A stretch of DNA of 64,000 nucleotides, taken from the sequence record PX880100.1, one strand, 5' to 3'. How positions within the stretch are numbered: position 1 is the stretch's first letter; each line of letters begins with the position of its first letter. Of the stretch, positions 1 to 8,479 are shown one piece after another. This DNA is from a phage. The notes below the pieces were generated by a model that saw nothing but the letters and a program-made list of their open reading frames with translations, searched no databases and was not told where the DNA came from. The position numbers were made by a program, and so were the translations under genes.

Positions 1-1704
1 AATACTGGATTCATCCGGGAACTCATAAGCATGAGCTTTTGACAGCATCTTACGGTGATGATTATAAAATGCTACTGGTTTATCAAACTCAATCAAAGAG
101 CCATATGCTTCAATTGTTTCTGCACTAATATCCCCATCAGATAATATAATAATTTTTGCAGTTGCAAGAATGTCCCGAAGAACCTGAATACATTCACGAC
201 GTTGTTTAACAACCGGGGCGAATAATAGGTCATTCATTACAGCATCACATTCATCGATAAAGATTGCATCAATTTGACCAATAAAACTCTTGAACTTATG
301 CAAAGAGTGAATAGTTGTGGACATACGGTCAATAGCACCACGCTTAAAATTAAGCATATCTACAGACTTATCATATTGTCCTGCACTGAATTTCTTAGCA
401 TTTGAAGACACCAGCGCTCTAGTATTGGTAATTGCTAAGAAATTACCTTTAATAACTCCCGAATCTAACCAACGCACAACCGCCGTAGTTTTACCTGTAC
501 CTAGACTTGCTTTTACAAAAGTCATATAACCTTCTGGTGGCACAGTATTTAATTTCAAGAAGTTATCAGTTTCTAGAGAATTAGTTTCTAGCTTTTTAAG
601 TGGAATACCTTTTAAAACATCTGGTATATCACGTTTAGAATTATTAACAAATGCTTTCAGAGCCTGTTTACGACCATTATTAAAGTAATCTTGAATATTG
701 CGACTATTATCTTTAGTTGCAATATATTCTGATAAGGCTGGACGAATTTCTTTTTCTAGCCATGCAAAATCAACACCATCCTCCAAAGCTCTATGATAGA
801 GTTTAGGGATAATACGTAGATACACCCCATCCTCAGCTTCTTCTAGTTCGCTGATAGTTTCCTCTACTTTATCAGAGGCAGCTTTTTTACCTTTAATTTG
901 ATCGAGTAAAGAGTAAAACTCCTCCTTAAACTCACCTCTAGTTGTTTCATAGTCAACCAGATTATTGGGTAAATTTACTTTAGAACCCTTAACAAATACC
1001 AGACGTGAAGCACCCTCCGCTTTAAACGGATCTACTATACCATCAATAAATAACGGATCTGCAAAATAATGGAGCTGTACGGAAGAGTAATAAGCTAAGT
1101 CGGCAATATCAAAGCCATACTTTTGTCTACTACTTTCGTTGATAGATGTAAATAAGAATTTGATTTGACCCTGAGTTACTTTAACATTAGATTCTAGTAT
1201 TAAGTGCATTCGGATACCTGGTTTTAGCCCAGCCGAAGACGATGCATGAGCAATAAACCCTGCATCAAGAGGAAACATATCCTCACTAATACTATTTAAC
1301 ATTCTAATAATATGTCGAGCCATGCCAACAAGATCAAACTTGTTACAACCACCTGTATCTACAATACCATCCACGTCCATTGCAATTATATGACTTGGGT
1401 TAGATACATTAAAGTTGCCCTTCTTACGTCGCACATTATTTTTAGGTGCAAGACATCGACCTCGTACCGCAACGATATGAGGGTCAGACGTTAAACGTCT
1501 CATAAGAGGAAGCATTTCTACTAGGGTTTGAGGATCAACTTCATCAATTACATCAAACTTGAAGGGCATTGAAGCTGGTTTACCTTCAGGATGCTTTGAG
1601 GAAAATCTTTTAGCAAAAAGATAGTCTTCTGCTTTAACTTCTCGCCAATTGCCTGTGGCTAAATCGCGATGAAATCCTGCATGACCTTGTAGGATTGAGA
1701 ACAC
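1..1704 (-). CDS. DNA replication P-loop ATPase (primase/helicase-like), partial, runs off window start; probable GTG start at 1704
   Basis: Minus-strand frame open to window edge; Walker A GTGKT; AGGAG 7 nt upstream of GTG; absent from ORF track (truncated, non-ATG start). Confidence 0.55.
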   Translation of the reverse strand, partial: MFSILQGHAGFHRDLATGNWREVKAEDYLFAKRFSSKHPEGKPASMPFKFDVIDEVDPQTLVEMLPLMRRLTSDPHIVAVRGRCLAPKNNVRRKKGNFNVSNPSHIIAMDVDGIVDTGGCNKFDLVGMARHIIRMLNSISEDMFPLDAGFIAHASSSAGLKPGIRMHLILESNVKVTQGQIKFLFTSINESSRQKYGFDIADLAYYSSVQLHYFADPLFIDGIVDPFKAEGASRLVFVKGSKVNLPNNLVDYETTRGEFKEEFYSLLDQIKGKKAASDKVEETISELEEAEDGVYLRIIPKLYHRALEDGVDFAWLEKEIRPALSEYIATKDNSRNIQDYFNNGRKQALKAFVNNSKRDIPDVLKGIPLKKLETNSLETDNFLKLNTVPPEGYMTFVKASLGTGKTTAVVRWLDSGVIKGNFLAITNTRALVSSNAKKFSAGQYDKSVDMLNFKRGAIDRMSTTIHSLHKFKSFIGQIDAIFIDECDAVMNDLLFAPVVKQRRECIQVLRDILATAKIIILSDGDISAETIEAYGSLIEFDKPVAFYNHHRKMLSKAHAYEFPDESSI

Positions 1705-2275
1705 AACAATACTCCTGTGTTGGAAATGAAATAAGTTTTCTTTAGGACTATTCAGAAAGAATAGAACAACTGTTACTGTCAATTTCTCAACAAATTAATT
1801 GCAAATACTGAAGTGGGGTGGCAACTTCCACTTTCACGCTACACTGCCGCTTCACTATACCGCACAAATCCTTGAGGATGGCCGCTAAGCCAGATTTGCT
1901 CACCTAATGCTTCATGTACTAGCTCATACTAGATGTAGTATACCTTACGTCATCACTTCTCAGAGTTTTTCACTCTTCCCGTCTCACTTCACAACCACCT
2001 CACACTAGGTTGCTTCGAGGCCTTACCAGGGTTCCTACGGGATGTAGATCGCTAAGTATTCTATTAATTATTTGTTTAAAAACCAACACGTAACAGTTAA
2101 AACAACCCTTAATGGGGCAGCCTAACTGTTCCGTATCGCGGATTGTAAACAAGAAAAATTAGCAAAATCAATTTTTACTAATGTCTCTCGATTCAATATA
2201 AATATTATATCAAGATTTTGGGCATCCTGCAAGTAAAATTTTCCGGATGGTGCTATCATTGGTCTTGAGTACGAG

Positions 2276-2300
2276 TAAAACCGAGCCAAAATGACTCGGT
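2276..2300 (-). terminator. Rho-independent terminator after 2309..2506 gene
   Basis: Minus-strand hairpin AACCGAG-loop-CTCGGTT followed by U-tract. Confidence 0.5.
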
Positions 2301-2308
2301 TATGTAGA

Positions 2309-2506
2309 TTAGACACTTAAAATACTTCTAATCTCTTCTATATACTTATCTACTTTTTTAGCATCTACTTTACTTAGTTTTCCTATGTCAAAATCAGGAT
2401 CAGTAAACATTCTAGCTATCTCTATCTCTAGAGACTTACTAATTTTCCCTGTAGTATTCCACTTAGAAATCTTACCTTTTATCTTCCAAAATTCCTTATT
2501 CATCAT
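2309..2506 (-). CDS. hypothetical small protein
   Basis: ORF track; ATG overlaps stop of restored upstream reading frame (coupling). Confidence 0.4.
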   Translation of the reverse strand: MMNKEFWKIKGKISKWNTTGKISKSLEIEIARMFTDPDFDIGKLSKVDAKKVDKYIEEIRSILSV

Positions 2507-2889
2507 TTAACCCCGGAACATATATCCCAACACGGTTTAATTGTTCTTTAGCTTCTTTGAGAATATCTGGAGTGTACTCCCAAATATCATCTTCCACCTG
2601 TAAAAAAATGGGGCGAACAACCATCATCCGGCACACGACATATGGCCAAACAACGTGGATGGAACAAAGAGAAATTTAGGGCAACAATTAAACCCATAGC
2701 AGACAATTCATTCCAATCCAATTCCCATTCCCCGGCGTATCCAGACAGGAAAACGCCAATGCATGGATCATCTATTTGCTGCTCAGGAAAAGTGAAAGAG
2801 ACTTGTCTTACCCCCAACCAACGTTGTAGCAGCTTCTCCGCACGTTTCACCAAACTAGGATCAATCTGACGCCAATATACTTGTTCCAT
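2496..2889 (-). pseudogene. frameshifted paralogue of 2899..3327 (intact N-terminal ORF 2587..2889; C-terminal part in +1 frame after an A7/T7 run at 2602-2608)
   Basis: N-terminal CIG and W-EL-MGL-ALN-LF motifs shared with neighbour; C-terminal W-Y-P...L-R-G...PGL block is only in the shifted frame. Confidence 0.5.
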
Positions 2890-2898
2890 TCTGCCTCC

Positions 2899-3327
2899 TT
2901 AAGCAGTTAAACCTGGGATCATATACCCGAAACGGCGAAGTTTTTGGATACCATCATTCACTTCTTCTGGTGAGTAAGACCAACCATAACGTTCATTAAC
3001 CTGAAAACCAGGAGATTCACTAGTTTTATAGTTAACAACGAGGCGATGCTTAGCAGACATAAACAGCTTATAGTTTAACGCAAAAACTAAGCCCATTTCA
3101 TCTAACTCTTTCCAGCCGACAATCTCTTCAAGGCCCTCTTCTACCTGAACAATTAAACCAATACAGGGGGCCTCATCAATATCATCTTTAAAAGCAAAGG
3201 AGATTTCGTTATTCTCACACCATATTTTCAAGGAGTTAATAGCCTCATTATACAGGCTAGCCGGGAGAGTACGCCAAAAGTTAACCAAAATTGGGTTAGC
3301 TTCTTTAGAGAAGACATTATTAAACAT
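2899..3327 (-). CDS. hypothetical protein, paralogue of 2496..2889
   Basis: ORF track; shared motifs with adjacent gene. Confidence 0.5.
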   Translation of the reverse strand: MFNNVFSKEANPILVNFWRTLPASLYNEAINSLKIWCENNEISFAFKDDIDEAPCIGLIVQVEEGLEEIVGWKELDEMGLVFALNYKLFMSAKHRLVVNYKTSESPGFQVNERYGWSYSPEEVNDGIQKLRRFGYMIPGLTA

Positions 3328-3329
3328 AT

Positions 3330-3842
3330 TTACACCTTAAATTGTTGTAGGGCTTTACACATTTCAAGATCTGGACTAAATTCTAACATATAGCTAACAG
3401 CTTTTAAATCCTGAAGATTTATCCCGGTCCTACCGTTGACTATAACCGTTGGATACTGATACATCATAGCACCCCCATCATCAAGCACACACCAATGTTT
3501 GAGCTTATGCTTTTCAACGAAGCGAAGAACAGAATTACCCCTAGATAATCCACCCCCAGTAAAATCCGTTGTACCAAGAAAACGATCGATAAGACCTAAT
3601 CCGGTCATAATCTGAACGTTCTCCATCTCATTTCTGACAGAGAACCAAGATGATACTCCAACAATCATTATCGGAGAAGGACGAATAAAGTCCTGAAAAG
3701 CCTTGAGAAGCGGTTTGAAAACCCAGTCACTTCCAAAGAAAATCTTTTCATCATCAGGTGCATGATGGTGGGAGATGCTTGAATTGAGCACCCCATCAAT
3801 GTCCAGAAAAATAATTGGAGTATTACTTATTTCCTGACACAT
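3330..3842 (-). CDS. HAD-superfamily phosphatase/hydrolase
   Basis: N-terminal FLDIDGVL (DxDG[TV]) motif I. Confidence 0.6.
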   Translation of the reverse strand: MCQEISNTPIIFLDIDGVLNSSISHHHAPDDEKIFFGSDWVFKPLLKAFQDFIRPSPIMIVGVSSWFSVRNEMENVQIMTGLGLIDRFLGTTDFTGGGLSRGNSVLRFVEKHKLKHWCVLDDGGAMMYQYPTVIVNGRTGINLQDLKAVSYMLEFSPDLEMCKALQQFKV

Positions 3843-4638
3843 GAGGTCTACCCCCTAAATGAGCTTCTACACGAGCAATAAAATCAGGATCACTGAAAGC
3901 ATCTACCGCACCTTTACTCCAGTAAGGGATACCGCGTTCTTCCAGCTGGTACATCTCACTACGAGTCATACCTTGATAGCCAGGTTCCGCCGCTAGGGCA
4001 CTATCATAGTAGTTAACAACCATTAGCTTGGCAGCAGTCAAATTAAGAACAGGAAATAGTTCCCAGTAGAAGTTAATTACTTGGTTAGAGCAACCAACCA
4101 CAATGATCATATCTTGACTGGTAATACCATCAAAAACATTGTACATTTCCGCATATGCTGGAGCATGCTCTCCAAAGAAGATTACATTAGGTTTAACCCA
4201 TTTATAATCATCTGGATCAATAGAATTGTATCCTACATCAATAATCCGTTTATTGCTACTATTGTAGCTATCAGCTACAACAACCTCTTTTAAATATCCG
4301 TGAATGTGCAGAATGTCACTATGTGGAACGCCAGCACGCTCAATAAGGTCATCAACGTTGGTAGTCAAGTTTACTACTTGACCTGGATATTGTTTATACC
4401 ATTCACCAATACGCAAATGCGCAAGATTGGGTTCAACAGTTTTTAGCTCTTCACGACGCCTGTTGTAAAACATATGGGTTTTATGATAAAAATTACCACG
4501 AAAGGCATGAATATTGCATACCTCTTCTAAGTCATAATCATCCCACAATGCTTTACCACTAGCAGTATCAGTACGGAAGGCTCGTACACCGCTTTCAACA
4601 CTCAAACCTGCACCGCTAATAACAATTAATCTACGCAT
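3823..4638 (-). CDS. Sir2-family (sirtuin-like) NAD-dependent deacylase/ADP-ribosyltransferase, apparently zinc-less
   Basis: GAGLSVESGVRAFR Rossmann motif, NVDDL, HIHG catalytic His; no CxxC zinc pairs. Confidence 0.7.
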   Translation of the reverse strand: MRRLIVISGAGLSVESGVRAFRTDTASGKALWDDYDLEEVCNIHAFRGNFYHKTHMFYNRRREELKTVEPNLAHLRIGEWYKQYPGQVVNLTTNVDDLIERAGVPHSDILHIHGYLKEVVVADSYNSSNKRIIDVGYNSIDPDDYKWVKPNVIFFGEHAPAYAEMYNVFDGITSQDMIIVVGCSNQVINFYWELFPVLNLTAAKLMVVNYYDSALAAEPGYQGMTRSEMYQLEERGIPYWSKGAVDAFSDPDFIARVEAHLGGRPHVSGNK

Positions 4639-4852
4639 TTTTCACCTGTTCTCTGAAGTTTTGCCCAATACTGTCTAATAGCTCAGCTAATTCTTTATTG
4701 CCTTTCTCCATTAAGGTATTAGCAATAACTTCTAGCATAGTAGCGCAGGATTCAATACCATCCTTATAGCCAGTTTCCCAGTGCTGCATTAATGCGTTTT
4801 CCAAAGCGGCGTTTAAACCCTTATCTGGTAGCATCGGCTTCGAGAATGCCAT
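4631..4852 (-). CDS. hypothetical protein
   Basis: ORF track, operon context. Confidence 0.4.
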   Translation of the reverse strand: MAFSKPMLPDKGLNAALENALMQHWETGYKDGIESCATMLEVIANTLMEKGNKELAELLDSIGQNFREQVKNA

Positions 4853-5045
4853 AAAGTTTCTCCTCTAGTTCCATAACACGATTTTCATAAGAGGCACGCA
4901 ACTTTTCAATTGCCAGCGCACGCACTGTAACCTCATTAGAATTAATAGCTAACTGGGCCAGATCTTCTGTTTCCATACGTCCGTTGTAAATTAAGCGATA
5001 TTTAAGGTGCTTCACATTCTTAGTCATTATTAAACTCCACTGCAA
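4821..5045 (-). CDS. hypothetical protein
   Basis: ORF track, operon context. Confidence 0.4.
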   Translation of the reverse strand: MQWSLIMTKNVKHLKYRLIYNGRMETEDLAQLAINSNEVTVRALAIEKLRASYENRVMELEEKLYGILEADATR

Positions 5046-5400
5046 CTGTTTCTAGGTCTTCATCAGAAAAACTAGAGTATATATCTTTAAGATACTGTTT
5101 AATACTCCAAGTAATATCTTCATACCCATTGGGGCTACGTTGGTATACTTTTAACACTCTATTATACACAAATTCAAGATTACATTTTACTTCATCTCTG
5201 TCTTCATCAAACAAGCAATATGGGTTATAAGGCGATACATCTAGATTTGTTCCTACCCAATCGCCAATAATGGTAGGGTATGCAACACCCTCTATACGCG
5301 AGTAATCACCTGTGGCAGCAAAGACAGCCTCCGCAATATCATCCACACCCAGATGGAAACTACCACATGTAGATTCAACTATATAAGGCTTTAATTTCAT
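5020..5400 (-). CDS. hypothetical protein
   Basis: ORF track; first gene downstream of nrdD. Confidence 0.45.
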   Translation of the reverse strand: MKLKPYIVESTCGSFHLGVDDIAEAVFAATGDYSRIEGVAYPTIIGDWVGTNLDVSPYNPYCLFDEDRDEVKCNLEFVYNRVLKVYQRSPNGYEDITWSIKQYLKDIYSSFSDEDLETVAVEFNND

Positions 5401-5499
5401 ATTTTTCTCCTCTCAAATTTATAAATCTATTATATATAAATTTTTGGCTGAAAGCAAATAAAATAAAAGCCAGGTCGACTAGCAACCCGGCTGATTAGC

Positions 5500-7374
5500 T
5501 TATTTAGCTCGAATATCCTGATGTTTCACCCTGCCCATAACCTCGTGCTGTTTGCCGGGGTTAAATGGACGAGCACCCGGATTTCCAAGATACCCACAAA
5601 CTCGACGAGTTACTTCAAGAGTTTCGGGGTCATGATTACCACAGATAGGGCACTTAAATCCATCTTCGGATGCTATTGTTTCACCTAAGAATCCACATTT
5701 ACCACAAGAATCCACTGGAGTATTAATACCGAAGTAATGAACCTTACTAGCCGCATAATTAATAACCCATTCCAGTGCATCTGGGAATCGTTTCATATCC
5801 GGTAGTTCTACATAGGAAATGCACCCACCAGAAGCAATCGGAGTAAAGTTAGACTCATAATCAAATTTCACGTTAGGAGCAACTTTACGTTCCACATCAA
5901 GGTGGTGAGAGTTAGTGTAGTATCCTTTGGACAGAATATCTTCATGCTCCGGGAAATATTCACGGTCTAGACGACAAAAACGGTCGCATAGGGATTCTGA
6001 TGGTGTAGCATACAGACTATAACCTAGTTTAGTTTCTTCCTTCTTCTGATCGACTCTATCCCGCATGTACTGCAATACACGCTGAACAAACTTGATGCAG
6101 GTCTCGGACATTGTGTCTACATCTTTGCCAAACATGAACTGTAGCATTTCATGGCAGCCAATATACCCTAGAGATACAGAAGCACGGTTATAGAAATGAT
6201 CGAATACATATTCCTCAGGCCCCAAGCGTAACCCAAAGGCTCCTGACATATAGAGGATGGGTGCAGCTTTAGCTTGAATGTATTTTAAGCGATCAACTCT
6301 CCACTCCAACGCTTTTAATGCTGTATCCACACGTAGCTCAAGCAAATCAAAGAATAGGTCAATATTTCCCTCAGCTTCGATAGCAATTCTAGGCAAGTTT
6401 ACAGAAACAACACCTAAGTTATTACGACCGGCAGTTTCACCATCTTCTGTAGCAGCTAGGAATGAACGACAGCCCATAGAAACTTTGTAGTCCCCAGTAA
6501 CTTCCACAACCTTATCATAGCTGATATAATCTGGATACATACGTTCAGCAGTACATTTCATAGCTAACTTCTTGATGTCATAATTAACATCTCCTGGTTT
6601 CATGTTAACACCATCACGAAGTACAAATACCAGTTTCGGGAAGATAGCTGTACGTTTATTGATACCTAAACCATCCATGCGTACTTTCAGTATTGCTTTC
6701 TGTACTAGACGTGCTTCCCAAGAAGTTCCTAGACCAAAACCAAAGGTAATAAATGGACTCTGACCGTTAGAGTTGAACATTGTATTGATTTCATACTCTA
6801 GACCCTGACAGGCATCATAGACTTCCTTTTCAGTCATCTCCGTAGCCATTACTGATGCTTTGGCTTCATCCTTAGTCCAACGTTTTGCAAACGCATGATT
6901 TTTGTCATAGGATTTACGAACATAAGGGGCTAATACTTCATCAAGGCGATCTACAGAAGTACCACCATACTGATGGGAGCTAACCTGAGTGATAATCTGA
7001 GCAGTAATAGCCGCCGCAGTAGTAATAGAGTTTGGAGTGCTAATTTCAGCATTACCAACCTTCATACCATTCTTCAACATATCTTCCAGAGCTACCAGAC
7101 AACAGTTAGTCATGCCTAATGCAGCATAATCAGCATCATGGAAATGAATATCCCCAATCATATGAGCATTTCGAATCTGAATTGGCATTTCTTCTAGAAT
7201 CAGATACTTACTCAATTCACCTGCAAGCATATCCCTTTGTGTAGGGAAACGTTCTGAGGGTTTATTAGCATTATTAAACAGCAGCTCTTCATCTGCTGAC
7301 CCTTCGATAATCTCTTTGCAGTTTCTAATTAACGCCTGCATTTCTTTATACTTTAGTTCTTCATTGCGATTCAT
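5500..7374 (-). CDS. nrdD: anaerobic ribonucleoside-triphosphate reductase (class III RNR)
   Basis: 624 aa; C-terminal CPICG...RRVCGYLG zinc ribbon plus glycyl radical motif. Confidence 0.9.
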   Translation of the reverse strand: MNRNEELKYKEMQALIRNCKEIIEGSADEELLFNNANKPSERFPTQRDMLAGELSKYLILEEMPIQIRNAHMIGDIHFHDADYAALGMTNCCLVALEDMLKNGMKVGNAEISTPNSITTAAAITAQIITQVSSHQYGGTSVDRLDEVLAPYVRKSYDKNHAFAKRWTKDEAKASVMATEMTEKEVYDACQGLEYEINTMFNSNGQSPFITFGFGLGTSWEARLVQKAILKVRMDGLGINKRTAIFPKLVFVLRDGVNMKPGDVNYDIKKLAMKCTAERMYPDYISYDKVVEVTGDYKVSMGCRSFLAATEDGETAGRNNLGVVSVNLPRIAIEAEGNIDLFFDLLELRVDTALKALEWRVDRLKYIQAKAAPILYMSGAFGLRLGPEEYVFDHFYNRASVSLGYIGCHEMLQFMFGKDVDTMSETCIKFVQRVLQYMRDRVDQKKEETKLGYSLYATPSESLCDRFCRLDREYFPEHEDILSKGYYTNSHHLDVERKVAPNVKFDYESNFTPIASGGCISYVELPDMKRFPDALEWVINYAASKVHYFGINTPVDSCGKCGFLGETIASEDGFKCPICGNHDPETLEVTRRVCGYLGNPGARPFNPGKQHEVMGRVKHQDIRAK

Positions 7375-7403
7375 TATACTCTCCTTCTCTAACTAAGACT
7401 ACT

Positions 7404-7432
7404 ATTATAACTCATTCGAGGGCGGATGTCAA
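7404..7432 (-). promoter_or_regulatory. sigma70-type promoter for nrdD operon
   Basis: TTGACA-17 bp-TATAAT on minus strand. Confidence 0.6.
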
Positions 7433-7483
7433 CAATATTTTACTATAAAGTTCTGTAACATGATCTGAGTCAAAAAATTTTAT

Positions 7484-7512
7484 TTGCCAATCTCTATTAA
7501 AAATTGTATAAT
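7484..7512 (+). promoter_or_regulatory. sigma70-type promoter (rightward)
   Basis: TTGCCA-17 bp-TATAAT. Confidence 0.5.
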
Positions 7513-7623
7513 CACGCACTCGTGCACGCGATATAAAATGATTATCTAGTATCACACATCTCACGTTAAAAGCAAGCAAATTTTTTATTTAAATGCAATA
7601 TCATAGGCTTATTTAAAATTGTA

Positions 7624-7652
7624 GTTGCTTTTTACTGTATATATTGGTATAA
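7624..7652 (+). promoter_or_regulatory. early promoter upstream of phoH
   Basis: TTGCTT-17 bp-TATAAT. Confidence 0.55.
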
Positions 7653-7717
7653 TATATTTGTAAGTTGATAAACAAGATCTTTTTGTTGATCCTCTGTTAG
7701 CGAAGTACACTATAGGA

Positions 7718-8479
7718 GTGTTATTTATGGGAAAAGCACGTCAAAAAAGAGAGAACCGCAATGGTTCAAGAAAGCGTGGCAACAAGTATGAGAATAACGT
7801 AATTCAGGCTGATTTTTCTAATGATTACGCTAACCCAGTTGCTAAATCCCTAGTAGGTAAAAACCGCGAGCAAAAATCATATATCAATATGATCAAGAAC
7901 AACACAGTGACTGTGGGTATTGGTGAGCCAGGTACAGGTAAAACCTTTATTCCGTCTGTTCTTGCAGCTCAGGAACTTGTAGACATTCACTCAGATATTG
8001 AGCAAGTGATCCTCGTACGTCCTAATGAACCTCTAGGTAAGTCTCTTGGTATGCTTCCTGGTGATCTAGCGGAAAAGCTAGAGCCTTGGTTGGAGCCAAT
8101 AGCTGATGGTATGAAATGGGCCATCGGCGATCATGCATATAAAGGATATGTCGAACGTCAGAAAATTAAATTTTTGGCTATCGAACATGCTCGTGGCAGA
8201 ACTTTCAACAACTCCTATGTAATTGTCGACGAAGCTCAGAATATTTCCGTTGAGGCAATGATTTGTCTCCTAACTCGTGTAGGGCAAGACTGCCGTTTAA
8301 TTATCTGCGGAGATATAGCTCAGAAAGACATTAAAGGTGACTCAGGTCTAGCACTCCTTATGGAAGTCTATGAGAAATACGAAAATGCCCCCTTCTCAAT
8401 GATCGAATTGATTGATAACGTTCGTTCTGTTGAGTCTAAAGCATTCTATGATATTTTTAAAGACATGGGGAAGGTGTAA
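7718..8479 (+). CDS. phoH: PhoH-like ATPase
   Basis: Walker A GEPGTGKTF; Walker B VIVDEAQN. Confidence 0.85.
   Translation: MLFMGKARQKRENRNGSRKRGNKYENNVIQADFSNDYANPVAKSLVGKNREQKSYINMIKNNTVTVGIGEPGTGKTFIPSVLAAQELVDIHSDIEQVILVRPNEPLGKSLGMLPGDLAEKLEPWLEPIADGMKWAIGDHAYKGYVERQKIKFLAIEHARGRTFNNSYVIVDEAQNISVEAMICLLTRVGQDCRLIICGDIAQKDIKGDSGLALLMEVYEKYENAPFSMIELIDNVRSVESKAFYDIFKDMGKV

What the first reader, a model, noticed from the sequence alone, without database searches (positions are those of the whole stretch)
2496..4638. Zinc-less Sir2 + HAD phosphatase + duplicated small-protein pair, one copy frameshifted in a 7-nt homopolymer
A Sir2-like gene without CxxC zinc pairs (as in ADP-ribosylating sirtuins) overlaps a HAD-family hydrolase, followed by two paralogous small proteins. 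The second paralogue is split by a +1 shift exactly at an A7 run (2602-2608); removing one base restores a full-length protein aligning with its neighbour to the C-terminus. The block could act in NAD/ADP-ribose-based host takeover or counter-defence. The shift may be sequencing error, slippage, or decay of a redundant copy.
Basis: partly seen in the sequence, partly recalled or inferred. Interest (0 to 1): 0.6.

Follow-up and report, generated by a model that had tools for sequence, protein, structure and literature searches.

The report
T5-phage Sir2 operon, one broken paralogue
This is the already-annotated early accessory operon of T5-like phages (zinc-less sirtuin, HAD phosphatase, two small DUF7415 proteins), in which the second small gene carries a lineage-specific one-base insertion, not a designed frameshift, so the finding is real but ordinary.

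Summary
All sequence observations are confirmed. On the minus strand lie a 271-aa Sir2 (3823-4638) with no zinc-binding cysteines, a 170-aa HAD_SAK_2 phosphatase overlapping it by 20 nt (3330-3842), and two DUF7415 paralogues (32% identical). The second paralogue is split at the A7 run at 2602-2608.

The window is a T5-like phage, and the block equals T5 genes T5.102 and T5.105-T5.107. The sirtuin plus "Swiss-army-knife" HAD pairing was published in 2022 with a predicted KptA-like RNA-repair role. Zinc-less phage sirtuins were noted in 2016.

In relatives the second paralogue is an intact 393-nt gene under purifying selection. Most relatives have an interrupted tract (TCTTTT), four phages have T6, and only this window and Citrobacter phage Cit2 have T7. 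The window copy also has Gly80Cys at a near-invariant family glycine. I therefore read the shift as a non-programmed, probably genuine early pseudogenisation of a duplicated gene. A homopolymer sequencing error remains possible at about 30%.

The remark "as in ADP-ribosylating sirtuins" is wrong: SirTM enzymes bind zinc. DUF7415 has no recognisable fold relative and no known function. Phage DT57C lacks most of Sir2 and HAD, so the module is accessory. Interest is low.

The parts
3823..4638 (-). Sir2-family protein, 271 aa, from the zinc-less phage clade. Orthologue of T5.102.
   Evidence: PF02146, E 8.5e-25. Best solved relative is E. coli CobB 1S5P, E 1e-17. G9-A10-G11-x-S13, F21-R22, N94, D96 and H113-G114 are invariant in the clade. 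No cysteine lies in 115-150. None of 120 homologues has any CxxC. The AF2 model has pLDDT 89.5, with confident beta strands 114-122 and 131-134 where the zinc ribbon would sit.
3330..3842 (-). HAD-superfamily phosphatase of the 'Swiss Army Knife RNA repair' type, 170 aa. Orthologue of T5.105. Overlaps the Sir2 3' end by 20 nt.
   Evidence: PF18143 HAD_SAK_2, E 8.8e-20. Motif I FLDIDGVLN (D14, D16) is read directly. No PDB relative by sequence.
2899..3327 (-). DUF7415 paralogue A, 142 aa. Orthologue of T5.106. Intact.
   Evidence: PF24187, E 2.5e-35, two stretches. AF2 pLDDT 86.5, pTM 0.81. No fold match in PDB. It has lost the family HPxGLA signature.
2587..2889 (-). DUF7415 paralogue B, N-terminal 100-codon fragment ending at a premature TGA (2587-2589). 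Orthologue of T5.107.
   Evidence: Relatives have an intact 393-nt ORF.
2602..2608 (.). A7 on the plus strand, which is T7 on the coding strand (His94 CAT, Phe95 TTT, Phe96 TTT). This is the site of the one-base insertion.
   Evidence: Tract states in 26 sequences: TCTTTT 22, CCTTTT 1, T6 1, T7 2 (window and Cit2). In INPHARED, 1 of 163 records has T7 and 4 phages have T6. In IMG/VR, 18 contigs are in frame and 0 have the 7-nt tract.
2496..2601 (-). Out-of-frame C-terminal 35 codons of paralogue B (LQVEDDIWEYTPDILKEAKEQLNRVGIYVPGLNDE plus stop). Still free of further lesions.
   Evidence: It carries 6 of the 18 family-invariant residues.
2650..2652 (-). Codon 80 of paralogue B. TGT (Cys) replaces GGT (Gly) in the HPxGLA signature. 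A window-specific second lesion.
   Evidence: Mismatch at 2652 against all compared relatives, including Cit2. This position is Gly in 90 of 91 non-A family members.
2309..2506 (-). 65-aa ORF (phrog_29527) whose start overlaps the normal stop of paralogue B.
   Evidence: Present in SaI_NFG_5581, LmqsSP1 and Cit2. Absent in T5 and Lindwurm, where a terminator follows T5.107.
4631..5400 (-). Three small upstream ORFs of the same operon (73, 74 and 126 aa; T5.100/T5.101 region). The first overlaps the Sir2 start by 8 nt.
5468..7432 (-). Upstream neighbour nrdD (5500-7374), with a perfect sigma-70 consensus promoter (7432-7404) and a terminator (5492-5468).

Best explanation
The region is the conserved early accessory operon of a T5-like (Markadamsvirinae) phage. 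It matches T5.100-T5.107 but lacks the T5.103/T5.104 insert. It lies downstream of nrdD and its genes abut or overlap as in a single transcription unit.

It encodes three kinds of protein:
- A canonical-family sirtuin related to CobB. It keeps all NAD-binding and catalytic residues. It keeps the small beta module but has lost the zinc ligands, which is a clade-wide trait.
- A SAK-type HAD phosphatase.
- Two DUF7415 proteins. They arose by a duplication seen in Markadamsvirinae and Sugarland-like Klebsiella phages; more distant Demerecviridae (My1, Slocum) have one copy.

History of paralogue B (inferred):
1. A CTT to TTT change turned the interrupted tract TCTTTT into a T6 homopolymer.
2. Replication slippage then added one T, giving T7.
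3. Translation now stops five codons later, removing the last 35 residues, including 6 of the 18 family-invariant positions.
4. The window copy then acquired Gly80Cys in the family's signature motif.

This is a non-programmed, lineage-specific inactivation of one of two duplicated accessory genes, shared with Citrobacter phage Cit2.

Most likely biochemistry of the block (inference, about 0.4): NAD+-dependent processing of damaged RNA ends. The sirtuin would transfer ADP-ribose to a 2'-phosphate, as KptA does, and the HAD would remove terminal phosphates or dephosphorylate the ADP-ribose-phosphate by-product. The DUF7415 proteins would be accessory factors of unknown role.
For: Identity with T5:
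- 443 phage records match, all Demerecviridae-type. T5.102, T5.105, T5.106 and T5.107 sit in the same order, with a promoter before T5.100 and a terminator after T5.107.

Sirtuin:
- PF02146 hit and CobB as best solved relative.
- Invariant GAGxS, FR, N94, D96 and H113.
- 0 of 120 clade members with any CxxC.
- Beta module modelled confidently.

Duplication:
- A and B align at E 1e-20 and share a fold (TM 0.86-0.93 to B orthologues).
- My1 and Slocum have a single DUF7415 gene after Sir2.

Lesion not programmed:
- B is intact in T5, SaI_NFG_5581, Lindwurm, LmqsSP1, STyj5-1 and DT57C.
- The intact protein cluster has 503 members.
- 22 of 26 sequences have the non-slippery tract TCTTTT.

Purifying selection:
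- pN/pS is 0.04-0.13 for B against more distant relatives.

Lesion probably real:
- The same T7 occurs in an independent GenBank record that is 5% diverged, with 66 mismatches and no gaps.
- There is a second, window-specific lesion at a near-invariant Gly.
- It is the only isolated one-base indel inside a conserved coding sequence in about 45 kb compared with the closest genome.

RNA-repair reading:
- Published context analysis (PMC9503650).
- A 60%-identical Sir2 in Klebsiella phage KpS8 sits in a Metallophos, Rnl1, cREC, AAA_33 kinase, Sir2 operon.
- The HAD belongs to the SAK RNA-repair HAD family.
Against: - Reads cannot be inspected, so a homopolymer consensus error is not excluded.
- The C-terminal 35 codons carry no further damage. 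The event is therefore either very recent or not real.
- pN/pS of B against its two closest relatives is only mildly raised (0.27-0.34, from 4-5 changes).
- For the biochemistry, no RNA ligase, cREC or polynucleotide kinase homologue exists in the 64-kb window.
- The Aeh1 HAD homologue lies beside thymidylate synthase. DUF7415 domains are fused to dTMP kinase and to a dATP/dGTP pyrophosphohydrolase, or lie between nrdD and nrdG. This points equally to nucleotide metabolism.
- No enzyme of this clade has been assayed, as far as the paper searches show.
Confidence: 0.7

Rival explanations
1. The extra A is a homopolymer sequencing or assembly error. The real phage has A6 and an intact paralogue B.
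For: - The lesion sits in a 6-7 nt homopolymer, the classic error site.
- The downstream 35 codons are undamaged and identical to those of relatives.
- The nearest allele (STyj5-1 and three other phages) is T6 and in frame.
Against: - The same T7 is in an independently deposited genome from another host and country, 5% diverged.
- If both are errors, 2 of the 6 genomes in the T6 lineage carry the same error.
- No other isolated coding indel appears in about 45 kb of comparison.
- A second damaging change, Gly80Cys, is in the same gene.
Confidence: 0.28
2. The T7 run is used functionally. Transcriptional slippage by host RNA polymerase, or a +1 ribosomal slip (tRNA-Phe re-pairing from UUU to UUU), yields some full-length B alongside a truncated form. 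That would make expression of B tunable or phase-variable.
For: - A +1 slip on CAU-UUU-UUU-A re-pairs perfectly and regenerates exactly the T6 protein (read from the sequence).
- Runs of about 7 or more A or T are known from my own knowledge to give low-level RNA polymerase slippage in E. coli.
- The allele persists in two diverged phages.
Against: - The run is not conserved. 23 of 26 sequences have an interrupted tract and a continuous ORF.
- No stimulatory element is evident, such as a rare or stop codon in the A site.
- The window copy has an additional damaging substitution.
Confidence: 0.05
3. The sirtuin is an NADase or a protein or nucleic-acid ADP-ribosyltransferase, used for host takeover or to counter NAD-based defence. 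The HAD would process an ADP-ribose-phosphate product.
For: - The catalytic core is intact.
- The genes are early ones in T5.
- The module is accessory, which is typical of conflict genes. It is deleted in DT57C, and HAD is absent in Slocum.
- The related Mydovirus operon lies near NadV, PRPP synthetase and NADAR genes.
Against: - There is no macrodomain, ARG or NADAR partner in the operon.
- No PADLOC or SIR2_2-type similarity was found.
- The zinc-less argument does not hold, because SirTM binds zinc.
- A NAD-consuming enzyme would work against the phage's own NAD-dependent DNA ligase (T5 ligA and ligB).
Confidence: 0.2
4. The sirtuin is a CobB-like protein lysine deacylase that re-tunes host or phage enzymes. 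The HAD and DUF7415 genes would be unrelated neighbours tied to nucleotide metabolism.
For: - CobB is the best solved relative, and the best NCBIfam models are CobB types.
- This role was proposed for the homologous Vibrio-phage sirtuin (PMC5107563).
- The operon lies next to nrdD, and DUF7415 is elsewhere linked to nucleotide enzymes.
Against: - All CobB equivalog models score far below cut-off (90-100 bits against 243-320).
- The zinc module is reported as required for canonical deacetylase activity (PMC12700824).
- The conserved TQNID glutamine is Thr throughout the clade.
- Similarity to CobB ends just before the substrate-binding VYP segment.
Confidence: 0.15

Closest known systems
Bacteriophage T5 genes T5.102 (Sir2), T5.105, T5.106 and T5.107 (NC_005859)
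   Same: Same genes, order, strand relation to nrdD and operon layout. Nucleotide identity in close relatives is 92-97%.
   Different: The window lacks the two small inserted ORFs T5.103 and T5.104, so Sir2 and HAD overlap by 20 nt. It has an extra 65-aa ORF after paralogue B. Its T5.107 orthologue is frameshifted and carries Gly80Cys.
Sirtuin plus 'Swiss-army-knife-like' HAD neighbourhood of Escherichia phage SP15-type phages (Iyer, Burroughs, Anantharaman and Aravind 2022, PMC9503650, section 3.7.3)
   Same: This is the same neighbourhood in the same phage group, and SP15 proteins are among the hits. The predicted role is KptA-like removal of RNA 2'-phosphate plus end healing.
   Different: The text passages retrieved from that paper do not mention the DUF7415 genes. 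Here they are shown to be the more persistent neighbours: Slocum has Sir2 and DUF7415 without HAD, and DT57C has DUF7415 without Sir2 or HAD.
E. coli CobB (PDB 1S5P), a canonical class III sirtuin deacylase
   Same: Rossmann core, GAGxS, FR, N, D and catalytic His. The small-domain segment has the same length.
   Different: No zinc ligands. TQNID is TTNVD. The C-terminal third is not alignable by sequence. Scores are far below the CobB equivalog cut-offs.
SirTM, the macrodomain-linked protein ADP-ribosylating sirtuins (Rack et al. 2015)
   Same: Sirtuin fold and microbial conflict context.
   Different: SirTM has a zinc-coordinating domain and an operonic macrodomain. Neither is present here.
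Antiphage SIR2 NADases (ThsA, DSR, SIR2-HerA; Pfam SIR2_2)
   Same: They also lack the zinc module.
   Different: This protein matches PF02146, not the defence models. It has no PADLOC hit, is phage-encoded and has no sensor domain.
Zinc-less Sir2/CobB of KVP40-like Vibrio phages (Skliros et al. 2016, PMC5107563)
   Same: The absence of a zinc site in a phage CobB-like sirtuin was already described, and the family was stated to occur in T5 and My1.
   Different: A different phage family and different neighbours. A deacetylase role was proposed there from modelling only.

Membership tests
Sirtuin (Pfam SIR2, PF02146) | Domain match above the gathering score | tested here: met
   88.2 bits against a cut-off of 24; residues 9-187 cover profile positions 1-178 of 180.
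Sirtuin (Pfam SIR2, PF02146) | NAD-binding and catalytic residues: GAGxS, FR, Asn and Asp of TQNID, and His of HG | tested here: met
   G9-A10-G11-L-S13, F21-R22, N94, D96 and H113-G114 are all invariant in 29 clade members. The Gln of TQNID is Thr.
Sirtuin (canonical classes I-IV, U, M) | Cys4 zinc ribbon in the small domain | tested here: not met
   No Cys lies between H113 and F154. The protein has only C41 and C183. None of 120 homologues has any CxxC. The beta module itself is retained in the model.
CobB-type protein deacylase (NCBIfam equivalogs) | Score above the curated equivalog cut-off | tested here: not met
   Best scores are 100.6 and 90.3 bits against cut-offs of 243 and 320.
SirTM ADP-ribosylating sirtuins | Operonic macrodomain partner and zinc-coordinating domain | tested here: not met
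   No macrodomain is found among the neighbours. No zinc ligands are present. SirTM has a zinc domain.
Antiphage defence SIR2 (PADLOC models) | Match to any defence-system SIR2 model | tested here: not met
   No PADLOC family matches at E <= 0.01.
HAD superfamily, HAD_SAK_2 (PF18143) | Domain match above the gathering score, and the motif I DxD nucleophile | tested here: met
   71.9 bits against 27.5, covering profile positions 1-138 of 139. FLDIDGVLN has D14 and D16.
HAD superfamily | Phosphatase activity and substrate | not testable with these tools
   No solved relative by sequence. Needs an enzyme assay.
DUF7415 (PF24187) | Domain match above the gathering score | tested here: met
   Paralogue A scores 120.9 bits and restored B scores 108.9 bits, against a cut-off of 27. 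Each has two stretches.
Sirtuin plus SAK-HAD phage neighbourhood (Iyer et al. 2022, type 3) | Phage-clade sirtuin adjacent to a SAK-like HAD in a T5/SP15-type phage | tested here: met
   SP15 orthologues appear.
KptA/Tpt1-like RNA 2'-phosphate removal pathway (functional analogy) | Cognate healing and sealing partners (RNA ligase, kinase, cREC or 2H) encoded nearby | tested here: not met
   tblastn of KpS8 Rnl1, cREC, AAA_33 kinase, Metallophos and NADAR against the 64-kb window finds only the Sir2. These partners are present in Mydovirus.
KptA/Tpt1-like RNA 2'-phosphate removal pathway (functional analogy) | NAD-dependent transfer of ADP-ribose to an RNA 2'-phosphate | not testable with these tools
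   Needs biochemistry.
Programmed frameshift or slippage site | Slippery run and two-frame architecture conserved among relatives | tested here: not met
   23 of 26 sequences have an interrupted tract and a single continuous ORF. T7 occurs in 2 of 26, in 1 of 163 INPHARED records and in 0 of 18 IMG/VR contigs.

The most novel reading that the evidence does not exclude
DUF7415 proteins could be a structurally new, phage-specific accessory module. They would partner the zinc-less phage sirtuin and other nucleotide-handling enzymes: NrdD and NrdG neighbours, and fusions to dTMP kinase and to a MazZ-like dATP/dGTP pyrophosphohydrolase. Under this reading, the T7 run shared by two diverged phages would be a heritable, slippage-dependent low-expression or on/off state of the canonical paralogue, rather than simple decay.
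Probability: 0.08. Interest if true: 0.5.

Novelty: already known. Interest (0 to 1): 0.22.

Why it matters
It matters little for this window. The operon has been annotated in T5 since 2005. Its sirtuin-HAD pairing and its lack of zinc are already in the literature. The frameshift is a private lesion in a duplicated accessory gene.

Three things are of some use:
- A clear mutational path for the lesion: TCTTTT, then T6, then T7, then a further missense change.
- Evidence that the module is dispensable and modular. DT57C lacks Sir2 and HAD. Slocum lacks HAD. My1 and Slocum have one DUF7415 gene.
- DUF7415 is a widespread domain (896 phage records) with no recognisable fold relative, and it repeatedly sits with nucleotide or NAD enzymes. 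No member of the sirtuin clade, the HAD family or DUF7415 appears to have been assayed, so the biochemical question stays open and is testable in T5.

Tried and rejected
- PADLOC gave nothing for any of the four proteins. NCBIfam gave nothing for HAD or DUF7415.
- HAD against PDB sequences gave no hit at E <= 1.
- Exact-sequence look-up of the truncated B (window and Cit2 versions), A and Sir2 found none of them in the 15-billion-protein collection, so the source assembly was not found.
- IMG/VR scans for the T7 allele, both exact and degenerate, gave 0 hits.
- Paper searches found no paper on DUF7415 and no experimental paper on the T5 sirtuin. The Kongming preprint mentions T5-like phages only for Dmp.
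- Programmed frameshifting was considered and rejected, because the run is not conserved.
- A SirTM-like toxin-antitoxin pair was considered and rejected, because there is no macrodomain and no zinc domain.
- A defence-type NADase was considered and rejected as a family assignment. It is still kept as a functional rival.
- The promoter and terminator scan of 1500-7800 gave counts at shuffle level. Only the perfect consensus promoter before nrdD and the nrdD terminator are noteworthy.
Full report
**What is there**

All genes of interest lie on the minus strand:
- A 73-aa ORF (4631-4852).
- Sir2 (3823-4638, 271 aa).
- A HAD protein (3330-3842, 170 aa), overlapping Sir2 by 20 nt.
- Small protein A (2899-3327, 142 aa).
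- After a 9-nt spacer that carries AGGAGG, a 100-codon ORF (2587-2889), followed out of frame by a 46-codon ORF (2496-2636).

The plus strand has A7 at 2602-2608. Removing one A fuses the two ORFs into a 130-aa protein. Adding one A does not restore the frame. The restored protein aligns with protein A across the junction to the C-terminal PGL motif (32% identity over 124 residues, E 1e-20).

Pfam assigns SIR2 (E 8.5e-25), HAD_SAK_2 (E 8.8e-20) and DUF7415 (E 2.5e-35 and 1.3e-31).

**Origin**

The 2.6-kb block matches 443 phage records. The best matches are Tequintavirus and Epseptimavirus genomes at 92-97% identity. In phage T5 the same genes are:
- T5.102: Sir2.
- T5.105: the HAD, wrongly labelled "Sir2".
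- T5.106: paralogue A.
- T5.107: paralogue B, 393 nt and intact.

In T5 a promoter is annotated before T5.100 and a terminator after T5.107, downstream of nrdD. T5 and about half of the relatives carry two extra small ORFs (T5.103 and T5.104) between Sir2 and HAD. The window lacks them, which is why the two genes overlap here.

**The sirtuin**

- The best solved relative is E. coli CobB (1S5P, E 1e-17). The alignment covers GAGxS, FR, the Asn and Asp of TQNID, and the catalytic His of HG.
- In an alignment of 29 clade members, G9, A10, G11, S13, F21, R22, N94, D96, H113 and G114 are invariant.
- The protein has only two cysteines (C41, C183), and neither lies in the segment that forms the zinc ribbon in CobB. 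The segment has the same length as in CobB.
- None of 120 homologues has a single CxxC anywhere. TTNVD replaces TQNID throughout the clade.
- An AlphaFold2 model (pLDDT 89.5, pTM 0.88) places confident beta strands at 114-122 and 131-134. The small beta module is therefore retained without metal ligands.
- No PADLOC defence model matches. CobB equivalog models score far below their cut-offs.

The characterised SirTM class has a zinc-coordinating domain and a macrodomain partner (PMC4518038). Zinc modules are missing in SIR2_2 antiphage NADases and FAM118 proteins (PMC12700824).

The lack of a zinc site in phage CobB-like sirtuins was already reported for KVP40-type Vibrio phages. That paper states that the family also occurs in T5 and My1 (PMC5107563).

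**What is published about the pairing**

Iyer, Burroughs, Anantharaman and Aravind (2022) describe a distinct phage sirtuin clade in three neighbourhood types. [quoted passage not shown] They propose a KptA-like removal of RNA 2'-phosphates plus end clean-up (PMC9503650, section 3.7.3).

I could check part of that context. A Sir2 that is 60% identical to the window's, in Klebsiella phage KpS8 (Mydovirus), sits in a Metallophos, Rnl1, cREC, AAA_33 kinase, Sir2, DNA-ligase operon, with NadV, PRPP synthetase and NADAR nearby. That is good guilt by association for RNA end healing.

However, none of those partners has a homologue in the 64-kb window. In T5-like phages the pathway would therefore have to rely on host enzymes. 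I found no experimental work on any member.

**The DUF7415 pair**

- A and B orthologues form two separate families, about 29% identical to each other.
- A model of A (pLDDT 86.5, pTM 0.81) shows a repeated helix-plus-hairpin unit, about two and a half copies.
- A profile search found 155 relatives. Most share only a central module of about 55 residues, with the signature DWNELSxxGLIxxINxEILHPxGLAxxRDxxTGxS.
- That module occurs alone, or fused to thymidylate kinase, or fused to a PF04447 dATP/dGTP pyrophosphohydrolase.
- tblastn finds the domain in 896 phage records.

Where the domain sits in other phages:

| Phage or group | DUF7415 arrangement |
|---|---|
| T5-like and Sugarland-like | Two copies |
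| Jiaodavirus (T4-like) | One small copy between nrdD and nrdG |
| Aeromonas phage Aeh1 | One copy right after rnlA |
| Pectobacterium phage My1 | Sir2, HAD, then a single DUF7415 |
| Serratia phage Slocum | Sir2 abutting a single DUF7415, no HAD |
| Escherichia phage DT57C | Natural deletion fuses the Sir2 N-terminus to the HAD C-terminus (90-aa "defective" ORF); both DUF7415 genes intact |

From this I draw three conclusions:
- The A/B duplication is seen in Markadamsvirinae and Sugarland-like phages but not in the more distant Demerecviridae, My1 and Slocum.
- Sir2 and HAD are dispensable for a viable phage.
- DUF7415 does not strictly depend on either.

B keeps the family signature. A has lost the HPxGLA motif.

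**The frameshift**

On the coding strand the window reads CCC CAT TTT TTT ACA GGT GGA AGA TGA.

Tract states among relatives:
- Close relatives read CAT CTT TTA, an interrupted TCTTTT tract.
- Among 26 sequences in hand: TCTTTT 22, CCTTTT 1, T6 1, T7 2.
- In INPHARED, 163 records match the 71-nt surround. Four phages have T6 in frame (STyj5-1, ABTNLsp4, S124, Kenya-K18). Only Citrobacter phage vB_CfrD-Cit2 has T7.
- IMG/VR has 18 contigs with the in-frame tract and none with a 7-nt tract.
- The intact B protein cluster has 503 members.

All four genes are under purifying selection, with pN/pS 0.03-0.14. The run is therefore not a conserved slippery site, and the two-ORF state is not a designed architecture.

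The likely path is a CTT to TTT change (Leu to Phe) creating T6, followed by a one-base expansion.

Three points favour a real mutation over a consensus error:
1. Cit2 carries the identical split (100 aa plus 52 aa). Over 2486-3834 it differs from the window at 66 positions with no gaps. Its HAD, Sir2 and paralogue A are intact.
2. The window's B has a second, private change, Gly80Cys (nt 2652), in HPxGLA. That position is Gly in 90 of 91 non-A family members.
3. Against the closest genome, this is the only isolated one-base indel inside a conserved coding sequence in about 45 kb.

Against this, the 35 out-of-frame codons are still perfect, and reads cannot be inspected. I put real against error at roughly 70:30.

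The truncation removes part of the last beta strand and the C-terminal helix, with 6 of the 18 family-invariant residues. It should therefore inactivate the protein. It also ends translation about 80 nt before the start of the next ORF (2309-2506), which normally overlaps B's stop.

A +1 ribosomal slip or RNA polymerase slippage could in principle regenerate the T6 protein at low level. This is inference only.

**Function**

Shown:
- Domain identities.
- An intact catalytic core in the sirtuin.
- An operon-like gene layout matching the annotated T5 operon.
- Accessory status.
- A duplication seen only in part of the Demerecviridae.

Inferred, with my estimates:

| Reading | Estimate |
|---|---|
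| NAD-dependent RNA end processing with the HAD as phosphatase | about 0.4 |
| NAD or ADP-ribose-based takeover or counter-defence | about 0.2 |
| CobB-like deacylation | about 0.15 |
| Other nucleotide-metabolic role | the remainder |

The last reading is suggested by several links: the nrdD linkage, the Aeh1 HAD lying beside thymidylate synthase, and the DUF7415 fusions.

**Verdict**

The system is already known, and the frameshift is a private, non-programmed lesion or an error in a redundant accessory gene. Interest is low. The only mildly novel thread is DUF7415, which has no recognisable fold relative and recurs with the phage sirtuin and with nucleotide enzymes.

Noticed in passing
L035 (Escherichia phage DT57C, KM979354) 2854-3126: A natural deletion fuses the first ~49 codons of Sir2 to the last ~41 codons of the HAD, giving a 90-aa ORF annotated 'defective'. 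Both DUF7415 genes downstream are intact. Sir2 and HAD are therefore dispensable in a viable T5-like phage.
   Followed up: partly
window 3834-3838; L003 3027-3382; L006 7244-7602; L004 4754-4963: There is an indel polymorphism between Sir2 and HAD. T5 and LmqsSP1 carry two small ORFs there (T5.103 and T5.104). Cit2 carries a different 69-aa ORF. The window and about half of the relatives carry nothing, so the two genes overlap by 20 nt.
   Followed up: partly
window 2650-2652: Paralogue B also has Gly80Cys in the HPxGLA signature, where Gly occurs in 90 of 91 non-A family members. The change is private to the window and absent from Cit2 and all other compared relatives.
   Followed up: yes
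P0095, P0148, P0152; L008 4974-5207; L011 7296-7529; L009 5001-5294: The ~55-aa DUF7415 core is fused to thymidylate kinase and to PF04447 dATP/dGTP pyrophosphohydrolase. In T4-like phages it sits between nrdD and nrdG, after rnlA (Aeh1), or next to a NudE Nudix gene (Maroon). This is a recurrent link to nucleotide-handling enzymes.
   Followed up: partly
window 2899-3327 compared with 2496-2889: Of the two paralogues, A is the divergent one: its second repeat has FMSAKHR in place of FHPRGLA. B keeps the family signature. The copy that is broken here is therefore the more canonical one.
   Followed up: partly
L010 (Serratia phage Slocum) 3129-4408; L012 (Pectobacterium phage My1) 3122-5203: More distant Demerecviridae have one DUF7415 gene. 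In Slocum it abuts Sir2 and there is no HAD. In My1 the order is Sir2, a 62-aa ORF, HAD, a 90-aa ORF, then DUF7415.
   Followed up: partly
window 7404-7432 and 5468-5492: A perfect TTGACA-17-TATAAT promoter lies upstream of nrdD on the minus strand. A 10-bp-stem terminator lies right after nrdD, so transcription of the Sir2 operon needs read-through or a separate, non-consensus promoter.
   Followed up: no
window 2309-2506: A 65-aa ORF (phrog_29527) starts inside the normal stop region of paralogue B (ATGATGAATAA). It is present in some relatives but absent in T5 and Lindwurm, where a terminator follows T5.107. Premature termination of B at 2587 would uncouple its translation.
   Followed up: no
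hits H100, H155, H36 and H37; proteins P0019 and P0026: T5-like sequences are deposited under unlikely names: Listeria phage LM 4-11-1, Campylobacter phage C13, Klebsiella phage KPP2018, and Enterococcus faecalis contigs. These are probably contamination or host mislabelling in public records.
   Followed up: no
annotations in L001, L003, and hits H16 and H31: Annotation errors have propagated. The HAD is labelled 'Sir2 NAD-dependent deacetylase' (phrog_18062 is built from HAD C-termini). The DUF7415 proteins are labelled 'tail tube protein' or 'exonuclease'.
   Followed up: partly
L032 and L033 (Klebsiella phage KpS8-type) 1-12777: The Mydovirus orthologue of this Sir2 lies in an Rnl1, cREC, kinase operon flanked by NadV, PRPP synthetase and NADAR genes. 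This is a combined RNA-repair and NAD-salvage island.
   Followed up: partly
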